Below, in pieces: positions 3,096-7,914 of a stretch of DNA of 64,000 nucleotides. Origin of the DNA: the human T2T-CHM13v2.0 reference genome, Homo sapiens; NCBI RefSeq assembly GCF_009914755.1, contig NC_060937.1; one strand, given 5' to 3'. Within the stretch, counting starts at the first letter, position 1, and every line of letters begins with the position of its first letter. The translations under genes were made by a program, and so were the position numbers. The notes beneath the pieces were generated by a model, which was not told the origin of the DNA, searched no databases, and was given only the letters and a program-made list of their open reading frames with translations.

Positions 3096-5317
3096 TATTT
3101 TTTATTTTTTAAAACTTTTATTTTAGGTTCAGGGCTACGTGTGAAGGTTTGTTATATAGATAAACTTGTGTCTAGGGGTTTGTTGTACAGATTATTTTGT
3201 TACCCCGCTACTAAGTCTAGTACCCAATAGTTATTTTTTCTGCTCCTCTCCCTCCTCCTACCCTCCACACTCAGGTAGGCCCACAGTGTCTGTTGTTCCC
3301 CTCTTTGTGTCTATGTGTTCTCATCATTTAGCTCCCACTTATAAGTGAGAACATAGGGTATTCAGTTTTCTGTTTCTGTATTAGTTTGCTAAGAATAATG
3401 ACCCCCAGCTTCATCCATGTTCCTGCAAAAGACATGATCTAATTCTTTTTAATGGCTGCATAGTATTCCATGGTGTATATGGCCACGTTTTCTTTATCTG
3501 GTCTATTGTTTATGGGTATTTAAGTTGATTTCATGTTTTTGCTCTTGTGAACAGTGCTGCAGTGAACATACATGTGCATGTGTCTTTATGATAGAATAAT
3601 TTATCTTCCTTTGCGTATACCCAGTAATGTCGAAAGGTATTTCTATTTTTAGCTCTTTGAAAATCACCACACTGCTTTCCACAATGGCTGAACCAATTTA
3701 CACTCCTGCCAACAGTGCATAAGTGTTCCCTTTACTCTGCAACCTCATTGGCATTTGTTATTTTTTGACTTTTTAGTAATAGCCATTCTGACTGGTGTGA
3801 AATGGTATCTCATTGTGATTTTGATTTGAATTTCTCAAATGATCAGTGATATTGAGCTTTTTGTTATATGCTTGTTGGCTGCATATGTGTTTTCTTTTGA
3901 AAGGTGTCTGTTTATGTCCTTTGCCCACTTTTTAATGGGGTTGTTTTCTTCTTGTAAATTATTTTATAGATGTGGATATTAGACCTTTGTCAGATACATA
4001 GTTTGCAAATATTTTCTCCCATTGTGTAGATTGTCTGTGTACTCTATTGAGAGTTTATTTTGCTGTACAGAAGCTCTTTAGTTTAATTAGATCCCATTTG
4101 TCAATTTTTGGTTTTGTTCCAGTTGCTTTTGGTATCTTCTTCATGAAATCTTTGCCAGTTCCCATGTCCAGAATGGTATTGTTTAGATTCTCTTCCAGGG
4201 TTTTTATAATTTTAGGTTTTACGTTTAAATTTTTAATCTATCTAGAGTTGATTTTTGCATATGGTATAAAGAAGGGGTCCAGTTTTAATCTTCTGCATAT
4301 GGCTAGCCAGTTGTCCCAGCACCACTTATTGAATAGGGAGTCCTTTCCCTATTGCTTGTTTTTGTGAGCTTTGTCAGAGATCAGATGGTTGTAGGTGTGC
4401 AGTCTTATTTCTGGGCTCTCAGTTCTGTTCCATTAGTCTATGTGTCTGTTTTTGTGCCAATATCATGCTGTTTTGGTTACTATAGCCTTGTAGTACAGTT
4501 TGAAGTCGGGTAGTGTGATGCTGCCTGCTTTGTTCTTTCTGCTTAGGATTGCCTTAGCTATTTGGGCTCTTTTTTGGTTCCATGTGAATTTTAAGATAGT
4601 TTCTTCTGGTTTTGTGAAGAATGTCATTGGTAGTTTGATAGGAATAGCATTTAATCTATAAATTGCTTTAGGCCATTTTAATGATATTGATACATGTATA
4701 GCAATCCATATCTGAAAGGCACAACTGAAATATTGTGTGGTACAGTTGGAGAGGCAGGCAAAACTTCTGGGAAAAACAGTCTGGCCATTTTATTGATATT
4801 GATTCTTCCTATTCATGTGCATGGAGTGTTTTTCCATTTGTTTGTGTCATCTCTGATTTCATTGAGCAGAGTTTTGTAATTATCATTGTAGAGATCTTTC
4901 ACCTCCCTGCTCAGCTGTATTCCTAGGTATTTTATTCTTTTCTGTGGCAATTGTGAATGGAATTGCGTTCCTGATTTGGCTCCTGGCTTGGCTGTTGTTG
5001 GTGTGTAGGAATGCTAATAATTTTTGTACATTGATTTTGTATCCTGAAACTTTGCTGAAGTCGTTTATCACTTTAAGGGGCTCTTGGGATGAGACTATGA
5101 AGGTTTTTAGATGTAGAATCATGTCATCTGCAAACAGGGATACTTTGACTCCCTCTCTTCCTATTTGGATGCCTTTATTTCTTTCTCTTGCTTGATTGAT
5201 CGGTCCAGGGCTTCCAATACTATGTTGAATAGAAGTGAGAGACGGCATCTTTTCTTGTGCCAGTTTTCAAGGGAAATGCTTCCAGCTTTTGTCCATTTAG
5301 TATACTGCTGGCTGTGG
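3096..5317 (-). mobile_element. 5'-truncated older L1PA (about L1PA13-16-like) nested in the L1PB
   Basis: T-rich tail at 3096 and L1PA 3' UTR on the minus strand. RT-domain remnant [14 protein letters not shown]...[13 protein letters not shown] (ORF 4883-5248). TSD AGAATGACTACTATT (3081-3095) / AGAATGGCCATTATT (5318-5332). Confidence 0.9.
4690..4780 (-). other. Non-L1 insert that is an inverted copy of 6368-6458
   Basis: Hand alignment to the reverse complement of 6368-6458 gives about 14 differences in 92 nt, including a 43-nt core with one mismatch. Confidence 0.9.
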
Positions 5318-6011
5318 AGAATGGCCATTATTAAAAAGTCAAAAAACAATAAATGTTGGTATGGATGTGGGGAAAAGGGAATGCTTATACTCTGTTGATG
5401 GGAATGTAAATTAGTACAACCTCTATGGAAAACCATATGGAGATTTCTCAAAGAACTAAAAGGAAGTCTACCATTCGATCCAGCAATCCCACTACTGGGT
5501 ATCTACCGAAGGAAAATAAGTGATTATATAAAAAAAGACACCTTGCATGCATAAGTTTATCACGGCACAATTCAAAATTGCAAAGAAGTTGAACTAACCT
5601 AAGTCCCTATCAACCAATGAGCGGATAAAGAAAATGTGGTATGTACACAACATGGAATACTACCCAGCCATAAAAAAGAACAAAATAATGCCTTTTGCAG
5701 CAACTTGGATGGAGCTAGAGGCCATTATTCTAAGTGAGGTAACTCAGGAATGGAAAACCAAATATATGTTCTCACTTGTTAGTGGGAACTAAACTGTGGG
5801 TAAACAAAGGCATACGGAGGGGTATAATGGACATTGGAGACTCACAAGGGGGGTTGTTGGGAGGAGAGGTGAGTGATAAAAAAACTACATATTGGGTACA
5901 ATGTACACTTCTCAGGTGACAGGTGCATGAAAATCTCAGACCACTATACAATTCATCTAGGTACCAACCAAAATCACTTGTACCCCAAAAGCTATTGAAA
6001 TAAAAAAATAC

Positions 6012-6090
6012 TAAAACCCACTGACTTGTATACTTTAAATGGGTAAATTGTATGACATGTGAATTATGTCTTAATAAAGCTGTCATTAAA
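6012..6090 (+). mobile_element. Old L1M 3'-end fragment
   Basis: ACTTGTATACTTTAAATGGGTAAATTGTATGACATGTGAATTATGTCTTAATAAAGCTG is a typical L1MB/MC 3' terminus. Confidence 0.65.
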
Positions 6091-6140
6091 AACTTGCTCT
6101 GAGTTTGACTTGGTGTTCATATTTTCTAGGGGCAGACTTA

Positions 6141-6347
6141 TTTTTTTTGTTTGATTTTGTCTTGCTGTGTCACCTAGGCTGGAGTGCAATGGTATGATCG
6201 TGGCTCACTGCAGCCTCAAACTCTTGAGCTCAAGGAATCCTCCCACTTCAGCCTCCCAAGTAGCCAGAACTACAGGTACACACCACCACTCCTGGCTAAT
6301 TTTTTAAATATTTTGTAGAGGCGGGGGTCTCACTATGCTGCCCAGGA
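6141..6347 (-). mobile_element. Truncated AluJ-type element
   Basis: GGCTGGAGTGCAATGG...CACTGCAGCCTCAAACTCTTGAGCTCAAG...CAGCCTCCCAAGTAGC, right arm plus part of the left arm. Confidence 0.85.
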
Positions 6348-7914
6348 TTCTTTAAGTACCAAATCCACAGTTTTCCTTAGGAAGGTTTGCCTGCCTCTCC
6401 AACTGTGCCACACAATATTTCAGTTGTGTGTTTCACATATAAGTAGCTATACATGTATTTTATTTTTCACTTGCAGACCCAACATACATGAGCAAAGTGA
6501 GCAAAGTGAACATCTTCAGAGGTTTGACTTTCAGTGGCAGCAGGGAAGCACATAAAATTGAGACTGGTTCTTACCTAGGGATTATCTCTCATTGGTGACT
6601 AATGGACACTTCTCATCATAGAGAAATCAAGGTATTTTTACAAGGTTGTGGTCTGTTTATCTACCGCAAGTACATTCAGAGAGTTCATTTCTAATGTTCA
6701 CTTCTTTTGTCAGGAAGGAATTTCTGTCATTTATTTGAGAAGGCAGTACTTTCTTTACTAACCACACATCAACCAAACAACACATCCTCCCTCACACAGC
6801 ATCTATCAAACAACAGCAGTCAAGGAAGGAGAGAGAGGAAGGGAAAAAAGAAACCTCCCACATAACTGACAGTCTGCTTAGACAAAGCTCATGCTGCATT
6901 AGACAGTTGTGTTAGAATGGGCTATTATAAACACAAGCAGGAAGGGGAGTGCTTACACTGTTCCATTAATAACTATGAATAAGCTATAATTTAAAGTTTG
7001 ATGTTTTAATAGATTATGGCTCAGCTTGTTTATTGAACATAATAAGTGGAGCTCTTGCTATACATATTATGAGTAATTACATTAAAAATGCTTGACCTGG
7101 AAGAAAACACAGCACATAAACGATCTCAGAATTTACCAGGCGGTATGTTAGCTCATTTCCTAATCACTATTTATTTATTTATTTATTTATACTAAAGCAT
7201 CAATGGAAAAAGTAGTCTATAATATAATGGCTAATTAGATGAGATACAAATTAGGCTTATGACATTTAGAAACCTGCACAATTATGGCTTTGTAATTACT
7301 GACTATGGGTAGCACATTGAATCCTATAAAAGCCAAAACACCAAGCTGGAGAGTGTGTTTTCCTGCTAGAAATATATCCCATGGTTCCCTTTTTGGTAAT
7401 TGCCATACTCAATTTTATGATATCAAGACTAATTTGATATTTGATTTACTATTCTATCTGTGTATCCATGTGTGGTAATACAGACACTTGACTTTCATCA
7501 GAAATTTTTTATTATATCCTATATAACATTAAATATGATGCCAAGCTGTAGTTTCTCCTTCCTAATGTAATTCTATAAAGTGACTAAGGTTCTGTGATAG
7601 TTGCTTCAGTTGCTTTGATATTGGTGATGTGGAATTACGAGTTTGACTCCCCCAAAAGAGTACATCTATTTGGAATATGTGCGATTCTAAAAAGTTCAAG
7701 ATGAGAGAAAGACTGTATGTCAAGTTATGGAAGACAGTTTTCATCATAATAATTTAATTATCAAAGATAATCTTATTATGCACAAGAATATTTGCTTAGA
7801 AGGATCACAGAGTGATGTGAAGGCAAAATATCTATTTAGAAAATACAAATCTTTACATGGTCTGTGATATGTTAACTTATTTTTTACCTGATTTAGTATA
7901 AATGGAAAAAAATG

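What the first reader, a model, noticed from the sequence alone, without database searches (positions are those of the whole stretch)
4671..6458. L1 body carries an inverted copy of its own downstream flank (templated insertion with re-entry duplication)
Seen: the minus-strand L1 (3096-5317) is interrupted at 4690-4780 by non-L1 DNA. This DNA is the reverse complement of sequence at 6368-6458 that I do not recognise as a repeat. It differs at about 14 of 92 nt, and the core CACAACTGAAATATTGTGTGG[T/C]ACAGTTGGAGAGGCAGGCAAA has one mismatch. L1 sequence GGCCATTTTA[A/T]TGATATTGAT occurs on both sides (4671-4691 and 4783-4803). The left copy lacks the preceding CAGTATG-like bases, and the junctions show short microhomology (AT; CAGT/CTGT). 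Known: L1 ORF2p can switch templates, and Pol theta end-joining and MMBIR make locally templated inserts. Inference: this L1's first-strand cDNA is the top strand, so the insert could be ORF2p jumping mid-synthesis onto the displaced top strand or a nascent plus-strand RNA about 1 kb from the target site, then returning about 25 nt back on the L1 RNA. The ~15% divergence fits an event about as old as the L1. A later repair event is the alternative.
Basis: partly seen in the sequence, partly recalled or inferred. Interest (0 to 1): 0.8.

Follow-up and report, generated by a model that had tools for sequence, protein, structure and literature searches.

The report
Locally templated inverted insertion inside L1
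An old L1 repeat carries a roughly 107-base patch that one complex mutation copied from nearby DNA, partly from itself and partly, upside down, from unique DNA 1.6 kb away; it is a real but ordinary kind of template-switch scar whose timing cannot be settled from this genome alone.

Summary
Window 4690-4780 is the reverse complement of 6367-6458: 78 of 91 aligned bases plus one gap, E 3e-21 in the window. These are the only two places in the whole assembly that match. All 25 related L1 copies aligned across the site lack the block and carry the flanking 21-mer once.

The simplest anatomy is a 107-nt block (4670-4776) that replaces three L1 bases:
- one filler A;
- a 21-nt direct copy of L1 4783-4803;
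- an 85-nt inverted copy of 6373-6458.

The three junctions show 0-2 nt of microhomology. This marks serial, microhomology-primed template switching.

Timing is unresolved. The L1's terminal branch is about 0.10 substitutions per site. The insert/source pair has K 0.16, which puts the event at about 0.8 (0.4-1.4) of the L1's age. The Bayes factor is only about 1.7 for "same age" over "any later time". No primate orthologue could be reached.

I favour DNA-level break repair or replicative switching on flank DNA made single-stranded (about 0.55). This is a known kind of mutation, of modest interest.

The parts
3096..5317 (-). 5'-truncated L1 (ORF2 3' part plus 3' UTR; poly(A) seen as a T-run at the left end). 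This is the recipient element.
Evidence: 3,884 first-look candidates genome-wide, and relatives 77-84% identical over about 2 kb. RVT_1 remnant on the minus strand at 4886-5266, E 4.4e-5, below Pfam's cut-off. Terminal branch 0.096-0.101 substitutions per site.
3081..3095 (.). Left copy of the L1's 15-nt target-site duplication (AGAATGACTACTATT).
   Evidence: 3 mismatches in 15 against 5318-5332. Both copies map to the same positions of the older L1, shown by inverted pairs I1 and I5.
5318..5332 (.). Right copy of the target-site duplication (AGAATGGCCATTATT). The pre-insertion nick site reads TATT/AAAAAG.
4670..4670 (+). A single A between L1 ...GCTTT and the left 21-mer. It is either filler or the remnant of the skipped GGGCAGTAT.
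   Evidence: Alignment with 25 relatives.
4671..4691 (+). 21-nt direct copy of L1 sequence, identical to the form most relatives carry. It is the extra copy under the block reading.
4692..4776 (+). 85-nt tract that is the reverse complement of 6373-6458. It is absent from all related L1 copies.
   Evidence: Relatives stop aligning at 4691 and resume at 4775-4783.
4777..4782 (+). CAGTCT, where L1 resumes (relatives have CAGTAT). This is an ambiguous zone, because source-RC reads CTGTGG here, sharing C.GT.
4783..4803 (+). Resident copy of the L1 21-mer, with one A>T change.
6373..6458 (+). Source of the inverted tract. It is unique DNA 1,040 nt beyond the L1's target-site duplication.
   Evidence: It is the only other match in the assembly. 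Single-stranded fold -11.4 kcal/mol, z -2.3; the 6360-6465 stretch gives z -3.3.
6449..6458 (.). Perfect 10-nt palindrome ATACATGTAT at the very end of the copied tract. Its outer AT is the microhomology with the end of the L1 21-mer.
   Evidence: Read.
5318..6005 (+). Right half of an older plus-strand L1 into which the minus-strand L1 inserted. The left half ends at 3095.
   Evidence: Inverted pairs I1, I2 and I4 (74-77%) against the minus-strand L1. A-rich end near 6000.

Best explanation
One complex mutation put a 107-nt block (4670-4776) into the body of an L1, in place of three bases (GGG). The block is two patches copied from nearby DNA.

Proposed mechanism: a break or stall in the L1 at ...GCTTT|GGG|CAGTAT... 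left 3' ends. A low-processivity DNA polymerase extended these ends on single-stranded DNA to the right of the break.
- The left end primed on the right end's overhang with 1-2 nt of homology. It copied 21 nt in direct orientation (GGCC...TTGAT).
- The right end's minus-strand tail folded back on its own resected strand 1.6 kb away. It copied 85 nt (6373 to 6458), which reads as an inverted copy.
- The two extended ends then annealed through the AT of the palindrome ATACATGTAT and were sealed.

This is the cis (snap-back) plus trans templated extension known for polymerase theta end joining. A replicative switch-and-return of the FoSTeS/MMBIR type gives the same product.

Shown: the block, its two templates and their orientation, the junction sequences, the uniqueness of the source, and the ancient age. 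Inferred: the break, which polymerase acted, the order of steps, and the timing. I favour an event after the L1 was in place, but the same chemistry acting on the half-finished insertion intermediate is not excluded.
For: - The block is absent from 25 of 25 aligned relatives. With 4670-4776 removed, the L1 aligns with only a 3-nt loss at that site.
- It is the only insertion longer than 5 nt in 2.1 kb of this L1.
- The two templates lie on the same (right) side, one direct and 6 nt away, the other inverted and 1.6 kb away.
- Junction homologies are 0-2 nt: T/A, AT, and C with C.GT homeology. They were read.
- The source is unique in the assembly. So this is copying and not a repeat family.
- PMC5068794 (passages read): snap-back gives reverse-complement inserts; priming is reiterated; errors run at about 1 in 30 and cluster where synthesis aborts.
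- Here 12 of 13 mismatches lie outside a 43-nt core (P 0.018).
- PMC5453318 (passages read): switch-and-return replication events and long-range FoSTeS/MMBIR insertions from thousands of bases away are recognised mutation classes.
Against: - The clock does not show the event to be younger than the L1. Its age ratio is 0.79 (0.41-1.39), with a Bayes factor of 1.65-1.71 for "same age as the L1" over a uniform later time.
- Typical Pol theta inserts are far shorter and more local. The average is about 10 bp, about 85% are primed within 10 bp of the break, and about 3% come from distant sites (PMC5068794). An 85-nt copy from 1.6 kb away is therefore atypical and needs kilobase resection.
- A mismatch density of 25% outside the core is far above a 1-in-30 error rate. 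Also, 3.0% of 91-nt segments of same-age L1/L1 pairs show such a clean core by themselves.
- Experiments show that L1 integration itself can leave inverted or templated genomic DNA from near the target: 3 and 3 cases among insertions in clones that carried 99 L1 and 235 pseudogene insertions (PMC11702581).
Confidence: 0.55

Rival explanations
1. During target-primed reverse transcription, ORF2p left the L1 RNA in the middle of first-strand synthesis. It copied 85 nt of plus-strand nucleic acid about 1 kb inside the reciprocal flank, either displaced DNA or nascent RNA of the plus-strand lncRNA locus. It then returned to the L1 RNA 27 nt behind its point of departure.
For: - The geometry fits. 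The first-strand cDNA is the top strand (T-run at 3096 and target-site duplication), and the copied strand has the required polarity.
- The event's age is compatible with the L1's, with a Bayes factor of about 1.7.
- PMC11702581 (passages and sections 6-7 read) reports template-switching RT, insertions with templated genomic DNA near the target, and cites biochemistry showing that ORF2p can use DNA templates.
- The hub's annotation places the window in an intron of a plus-strand lncRNA.
Against: - No feature of the sequence is specific to an RT.
- The known RT-switch chimeras described in the passages of PMC13174262 that I read put the foreign piece at the L1's 5' end, without a return to the L1 RNA.
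- The flank-derived pieces described in the text and the Fig. S9/S10 captions of PMC11702581 that I read are attributed there to processing of the reciprocal end. I read no case of an excursion that returns to the same RNA.
- Re-entry behind the departure point means pairing with RNA already held in an RNA:cDNA hybrid (inference).
- An extra 8-9 nt forward skip just before the left 21-mer is also needed.
- A single-stranded plus-strand template 1 kb inside duplex flank is ad hoc, and germline expression of the lncRNA about 40-50 Myr ago is unknown.
Confidence: 0.2
2. The event occurred during integration, but a DNA polymerase made it. The reciprocal end was resected for more than 1 kb. While second-strand synthesis was running along the L1 cDNA, the growing minus strand snapped back on its own single-stranded tail. 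It copied 6373-6458 and then resumed on the cDNA 27 nt back.
For: - The junctions and polarity are the same as in the best explanation.
- Single-stranded flank is naturally available at that moment. The Fig. S9A caption of PMC11702581 proposes resection of the reciprocal end and fold-back of its overhang next to a new L1 insertion.
- The clock is compatible.
Against: - I read no described case in which the flank copy is embedded 540 nt inside the element, with the element continuing in register.
- The intact 15-nt target-site duplication fits an orderly resolution, although it does not exclude resection of the 5' strand.
Confidence: 0.15
3. The block is an independent mobile or retro-copied element that inserted with a 21-nt target-site duplication. 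Alternatively, both arms are members of an unrecognised repeat family.
For: A direct repeat of 21 nt flanks 4692-4782. L1-mediated insertions make duplications of similar size.
Against: - Only two copies exist in the assembly.
- There is no A-tail at either end, no terminal inverted repeats, and no TTTT/AA-type site at the repeat's boundaries (read).
- The left repeat lacks 8-9 nt that a simple duplication would keep.
- The partner lies only 1.6 kb away.
Confidence: 0.03

Closest known systems
Polymerase theta-mediated end joining with templated insertions (snap-back in cis, copying in trans); SD-MMEJ
   Same: Patches are copied from DNA beside the break, in reverse-complement and in direct orientation. 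Priming uses 1-2 nt. Rounds of priming are reiterated, and a small loss occurs at the break. Mismatches concentrate towards the ends of the copied tract.
   Different: Here the inverted patch is 85 nt long and its template is 1.6 kb away. Reported inserts average about 10 bp, and about 85% are primed within 10 bp of the break (PMC5068794). No enzyme can be assigned from a fossil.
Replicative switch-and-return: the four-point template switch model, and FoSTeS/MMBIR
   Same: A nascent strand leaves at point 1 (4691), copies 2 to 3 in reverse complement (6458 to 6373), and returns at point 4. Returning behind point 1 gives the duplication. Long-range versions draw on DNA thousands of bases away (PMC5453318).
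   Different: The published genome-wide model covers short-range, single switch-and-return events, with a copied fragment of at least 10 bp and switch points within 30 bp of the mutation cluster. Here there are three junctions and a 1.6-kb jump.
Complex L1 integration products: template-switching RT, reciprocal-end fold-back, and templated genomic DNA at insertion junctions
   Same: Genomic DNA from within about 1 kb of the target, sometimes inverted, becomes part of the new insertion (PMC11702581).
   Different: In the text and captions I read, these pieces arise from processing of the reciprocal end before it is ligated to the RT-extended end. Here L1 sequence continues in the same orientation and register on both sides of the patch.
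L1 chimeras with other RNAs (U6/L1 and others) and twin priming
   Same: A second template is joined to L1 sequence within one insertion.
   Different: In the chimeras the partner lies 5' of the L1, is an RNA from elsewhere, and there is no return to the L1 (PMC13174262). Twin priming inverts part of the L1 itself, whereas both L1 parts here are co-linear.

Membership tests
LINE-1 (recipient element 3096-5317, minus strand) | High-copy interspersed repeat with reverse-transcriptase coding remnants, an A-tail, and a target-site duplication at a TTTT/AA-like site | tested here: met
   3,884 first-look candidates genome-wide. RVT_1 fragment at E 4.4e-5, below Pfam's cut-off. T-run at 3096 onward, a 15-nt duplication with 3 mismatches, and the site TATT/AAAAAG. 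The subfamily was not assigned, because no repeat library was available.
Templated insertion (locally copied DNA) | The inserted tract matches a nearby sequence far better than chance, and matches nothing else in the genome | tested here: met
   E 2.9e-21 in the window. Only 2 places in the assembly match.
Templated insertion (locally copied DNA) | The recipient's ancestral state lacks the tract | tested here: met
   25 of 25 aligned related L1 copies lack it. This rests on paralogues, not orthologues.
Polymerase theta end joining with templated insert | Short microhomology (1 nt or more) at each priming step, and loss of bases at the break | tested here: met
   Junction homologies are T/A, AT, and C(.GT). 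GGG is lost.
Polymerase theta end joining with templated insert | Template within a few to tens of bases of the break, and an insert of tens of bases at most | tested here: not met
   The 21-nt patch fits, with its template 6 nt away. The 85-nt patch has its template 1.6 kb away, against the norms in PMC5068794.
Polymerase theta end joining with templated insert | Dependence on POLQ | not testable with these tools
   The event is an ancient germline fossil.
Four-point short template switch (Loytynoja and Goldman) | A single switch-and-return, with the fragment copied in reverse complement from the immediate neighbourhood | tested here: not met
   The reverse-complement copy is present, but the jump is 1.6 kb and there are three junctions rather than two.
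FoSTeS/MMBIR-type serial template switching | Two or more switches at microhomologies, with templates kilobases away and in either orientation | tested here: met
   Three junctions, templates 6 nt and 1.6 kb away, one direct and one inverted. Involvement of a replication fork cannot be tested.
   Age ratio 0.79 (0.41-1.39), Bayes factor about 1.7. No orthologues were available (text; one search gave 0 hits).
Twin priming | The 5' part of the L1 is inverted relative to the 3' part | tested here: not met
   Both parts are co-linear with relatives on one strand.
Retrotransposed insertion with target-site duplication | A-tail next to one duplication copy, and an endonuclease-type site at the boundary | tested here: not met
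   No A-tail. The TTTT/AA motif at 4676-4681 lies inside the repeat, not at its edge.

The most novel reading that the evidence does not exclude
The block is a fossil of the L1's own integration. The reciprocal target end was resected for more than 1 kb. A polymerase that was copying the L1, either ORF2p on the first strand or whichever enzyme makes the second strand, made an excursion onto that single-stranded flank. It then returned to the L1 template 27 nt back. If so, this would be germline evidence, some tens of millions of years old, for kilobase resection and mid-element template switching during target-primed reverse transcription. It would also define a searchable signature: L1-internal inverted copies of the element's own flank, of the same age as the element.
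Probability: 0.35. Interest if true: 0.6.

Novelty: new member of a known kind. Interest (0 to 1): 0.3.

Why it matters
As a single locus it has no evident function. It lies in an intron of an uncharacterised lncRNA, and no functional element is annotated there.

Its value is as a clean, fully resolved example of a three-junction templated insertion, with one patch copied in direct orientation and one inverted from 1.6 kb away.

If a genome-wide census showed such flank-derived patches to be enriched inside L1s and coeval with them, the class would bear on an open question: how L1 integration intermediates are resected and completed, and which polymerase does it. If there is no such enrichment, this locus is one more scar of ordinary break repair or replication switching in neutral DNA.

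Tried and rejected
- **Repeat-family explanation.** Rejected. Whole-assembly searches with the insert and with 301 nt of the source returned only the two arms.
- **Chance.** Rejected. E is 2.9e-21 in the window.
- **Part of an L1 subfamily.** Rejected. 25 of 25 aligned relatives lack the block.
- **Dating by molecular clock.** Inconclusive.
  - Pairwise distances, the star estimate and the FastTree branch give 0.096-0.101 for the L1.
  - Per-site and collapsed-event comparisons give Bayes factors of 1.65 and 1.71.
  - I first read the low-divergence 43-nt core as evidence for a young event (core-only Bayes factor 0.019). I dropped this. The choice of core was post hoc. The placement of mismatches, given their total, does not depend on age. 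And 3.0% of comparable L1/L1 segments show such a core.
- **The 21-nt direct repeat as a clock.** Uninformative. The left copy matches the form most relatives carry and the pair differs at 1 of 21 positions. By a hand calculation of mine, not a tool result, the likelihood is flat across event times.
- **Intact target-site duplication as an argument against resection.** Rejected after re-deriving the geometry. Both ends carry 3' overhangs, so resection of the 5' strand would not destroy the duplication.
- **A second template for the mismatch-rich stretch 4703-4719.** None was found in the window (word size 7, E <= 10).
- **Orthologues or other genomes.** The assembly has no relatives in the tool (text). 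A scan of prokaryote genome contigs for a 32-nt core pattern gave 0 hits.
- **Endonuclease motif at the block's edges.** Not present. The only TTTT/AA lies inside the 21-mer.

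
Full report
**What is in the sequence**

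The region holds a minus-strand, 5'-truncated L1 at 3096-5317. On the top strand it begins with a T-run and ends at ...GGCTGTG.

It is a high-copy repeat. A 341-nt query around the site gave 3,884 first-look candidates in the assembly, of which 40 were scored. Related copies are 77-84% identical over about 2 kb. A fragment of the reverse-transcriptase domain is still readable on the minus strand at 4886-5266 (RVT_1, E 4.4e-5, below Pfam's cut-off).

The element sits inside an older plus-strand L1, whose halves end at 3095 and restart at 5318. Inverted pairs I5 and I1 map 3054-3093 and 5318-5446 onto overlapping positions of the younger element. So 15 nt of the older L1 occur twice: 3081-3095 and 5318-5332, with 3 mismatches. 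This is the younger L1's target-site duplication. The pre-insertion site reads TATT/AAAAAG.

**Check of the observation**

- The inverted match is real. The arms are 4690-4767 / 6381-6458, 88% complementary without gaps.
- With one gap the match is 4690-4780 vs 6458-6367, with 13 mismatches in 91 columns (8 transitions, 5 transversions) and K80 0.160.
- Within the window it has E 2.9e-21, and nothing else comes near.
- Searches of the whole 3.1-Gb assembly with the 91-nt insert, and with 301 nt around the source at E <= 10, each found only the two arms. The tool skips very common words and scores only the best candidates, but here all candidates (2 of 2) were scored.
- The 21-nt direct repeat (4671-4691 and 4783-4803, 1 mismatch) is confirmed.

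**Ancestral state and refined anatomy**

Of 29 related L1 loci fetched, 27 matched both sides of the site. Two were dropped: L020 paired distant matches, and L025 gave an empty extraction. The remaining 25 all read ...TAAATTGCTTT GGGCAGTAT GGCCATTTTAATGATATTGAT TCTTCC... (with small variants), with no block and one 21-mer. L012 and L013 are near-identical copies, so they are not independent.

The window reads ...GCTTT A [21-mer] [85 nt] CAGTCT [21-mer with one change] TCTTCC....

Relatives stop aligning at 4691 and resume at 4775-4783. When 4670-4776 is removed, the L1 aligns with only a 3-nt loss (GGG) at the site.

The most economical description is therefore a 107-nt block in place of GGG:
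- one A;
- a 21-nt direct copy of the L1 sequence that lies 6 nt further on;
- an 85-nt inverted copy of 6373-6458.

It treats the L1 as interrupted after the left 21-mer, with a 27-nt re-entry duplication and an 8-9 nt loss before the left copy.

This is the only insertion longer than 5 nt in the element. Its other private indels are deletions of 1, 2, 11, 1, 3, 10 and 1 nt, plus three small insertions, of 5 nt (3096-3100, in the T-run at the element's end), 1 nt and 1 nt.

**Junctions**

These were read.

- J1: GCTTT / A / GGCC. At most T or TA is shared with the skipped ...GTAT.
- J2 (4691|4692): the L1 ends ...TTGAT and the source (reverse complement) begins ...AAAT|ACATG, so AT is shared. 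This AT is the outer pair of a perfect 10-nt palindrome, ATACATGTAT (6449-6458), which lies exactly at the end of the copied tract.
- J3 (4776|4777): the source (reverse complement) reads ...GGAAAA|CTGTGG and the L1 reads ...GGG|CAGTAT. They share C, then G and T.

So there are three switches at 0-2 nt of homology. That is the signature of microhomology-primed template switching. It fits neither homologous recombination nor transposition.

**Age**

Pairwise K80 between this L1 and 29 relatives has a median of 0.201. Among the relatives themselves the median is 0.209. The star estimate of this copy's own branch is 0.096, and FastTree gives 0.101.

A duplicated pair as old as the L1 should then differ by K of about 0.20 (p about 0.176). 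The observed pair has p 0.143 and K 0.158-0.160. This gives an age of 0.79 of the L1's (exact 95% interval 0.41-1.39), and P(13 or fewer mismatches | same age) = 0.25.

The Bayes factor for "same age" over "uniformly distributed later time" is 1.65 per site. It is 1.71 when mismatches within 3 nt are collapsed into events, which gives 7 events in 91 nt against a median of 0.095 per site in 28 of the 29 L1 pairs; one pair with fewer than 1,200 aligned nt was left out.

The L1's own target-site duplication (3 of 15) agrees with the expected pair divergence.

So the event is ancient, in the first half or so of the element's residence. The clock cannot say whether it coincided with integration.

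**Mismatch heterogeneity**

The mismatches are uneven. 12 of 13 lie outside a 43-nt core (4720-4762) that has one mismatch (P 0.018 under random placement). However, 3.0% of 91-nt segments of same-age L1/L1 pairs show such a core. Given the total number of mismatches, their placement does not depend on age. I therefore do not use it for dating.

**Structure asymmetry**

The source strand folds well as single-stranded DNA: -11.4 kcal/mol, z -2.3, with 5 of 200 shuffles as good. For 6360-6465 the values are z -3.3 and 0 of 200. The equivalent strand of the insert does not fold well: -4.2 kcal/mol, z +0.5.

This hints that the source is closer to the common ancestor and that the insert copy carries most of the changes. 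Two readings fit: error-prone copying, or constraint on the source. An outgroup is needed to decide.

**Mechanism**

Any model in which a growing 3' end switches templates three times reproduces the product. The models differ in which templates must be single-stranded, and when.

(a) *Break in the L1 body.* After 5' resection, the right-hand end is a minus-strand 3' tail.
- The left end can prime on that tail and copy 21 nt in direct orientation.
- The right tail can fold back on itself 1.6 kb upstream and copy 85 nt, which then reads as an inverted copy.
- The two extended ends anneal through AT.
- These are the cis and trans modes described for polymerase theta (PMC4912351, abstract seen; PMC5068794, passages read: reverse-complement snap-back inserts, reiterated priming, errors of about 1 in 30 clustering where synthesis aborts).
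- Against a textbook assignment: those inserts average about 10 bp, and about 85% are primed within 10 bp of the break.
- A replicative switch-and-return of the FoSTeS/MMBIR kind draws on templates kilobases away (PMC5453318, passages read). It fits the size and distance better and cannot be told apart here.

(b) *Same chemistry during integration.* The reciprocal end is resected and second-strand synthesis along the cDNA makes the excursion. PMC11702581 is a preprint of which I read the abstract, sections 6 and 7, passages, and parts of the Fig. S9 and S10 captions. [quoted passage not shown] One is explained by resection and fold-back. It also reports three insertions with genomic DNA templated from near the site. 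The clones of that system carried 99 L1 and 235 pseudogene insertions. In what I read, these pieces come from processing of the reciprocal end, and I read no case embedded in the retro-copied sequence.

But it needs a single-stranded plus-strand template 1 kb inside the flank, or nascent RNA. It also needs a forward skip of 8-9 nt, and a return to RNA already paired with its cDNA.

Known RT-switch chimeras place the partner at the L1's 5' end without a return (PMC13174262, passages read).

**Weighing**

My rough priors for a post-insertional event in 2 kb of neutral DNA over this time, and for an embedded excursion at integration, are of the same order. Both are estimates from recalled rates, not tool results. 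The only quantitative discriminator available gives a factor below 2.

My estimates are:
- about 0.55 that this is DNA-level repair or replicative switching after the L1 was in place;
- about 0.15 for the same chemistry during integration;
- about 0.03 for a separate mobile or retro-copied element, and the remaining 0.07 or so for something not considered.

**Comparison and novelty**

The locus is a well-resolved member of the known class of complex templated insertions. It is unusual in combining a direct patch copied from 6 nt away with an inverted patch copied from 1.6 kb away.

I ran three literature searches. None of the papers I read describes a flank-derived inverted patch embedded in an L1 with resumption in register. 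That is too few searches to claim it is not in print.

**Limits**
- No repeat library was available, so no L1 subfamily is named.
- No other primate genome could be reached.
- Supplements were read only in part.

Noticed in passing
window 3000-3095 and 5318-6005 (plus strand), with 3081-3095 / 5318-5332: The minus-strand L1 is nested in an older plus-strand L1. The two L1s are 74-77% complementary where they overlap. The younger one has a 15-nt target-site duplication with 3 mismatches, at a TATT/AAAAAG site.
   Followed up: partly
window 6449-6458: A perfect 10-nt palindrome, ATACATGTAT, lies exactly at the end of the copied tract. Its outer AT is the junction microhomology. Whether it helped the switch is unknown.
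   Followed up: partly
window 6360-6465 versus 4690-4780 (minus strand): The source strand folds unusually well as single-stranded DNA (z -3.3 and -2.3), with stems of 6-7 bp. The insert copy does not (z +0.5). This suggests that most differences sit in the insert copy, or that the source is constrained.
   Followed up: partly
window 4720-4762: A 43-nt core has only 1 mismatch between the arms, while the outer 48 columns hold 12. P is 0.018 by random placement, but 3% of comparable L1/L1 segments show the same.
   Followed up: yes
window about 6133-6340 (minus strand): An Alu-like fragment with a T-run at its left end lies between the older L1 and the source. It ends about 30 nt before the copied tract. 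It was identified by eye and from recall, not by a tool.
   Followed up: no
L012 (G000:C24:5541949-5545072) and L013 (G000:C23:91195525-91198648): Two related L1 loci on contigs 23 and 24 are almost identical to each other (tree branches 0.005 and 0.003). They behave as one recent duplicate pair and are not independent witnesses.
   Followed up: no
window after 3628 and after 3968: This L1 has private deletions of 11 and 10 nt relative to at least 18 of 29 relatives.
   Followed up: no
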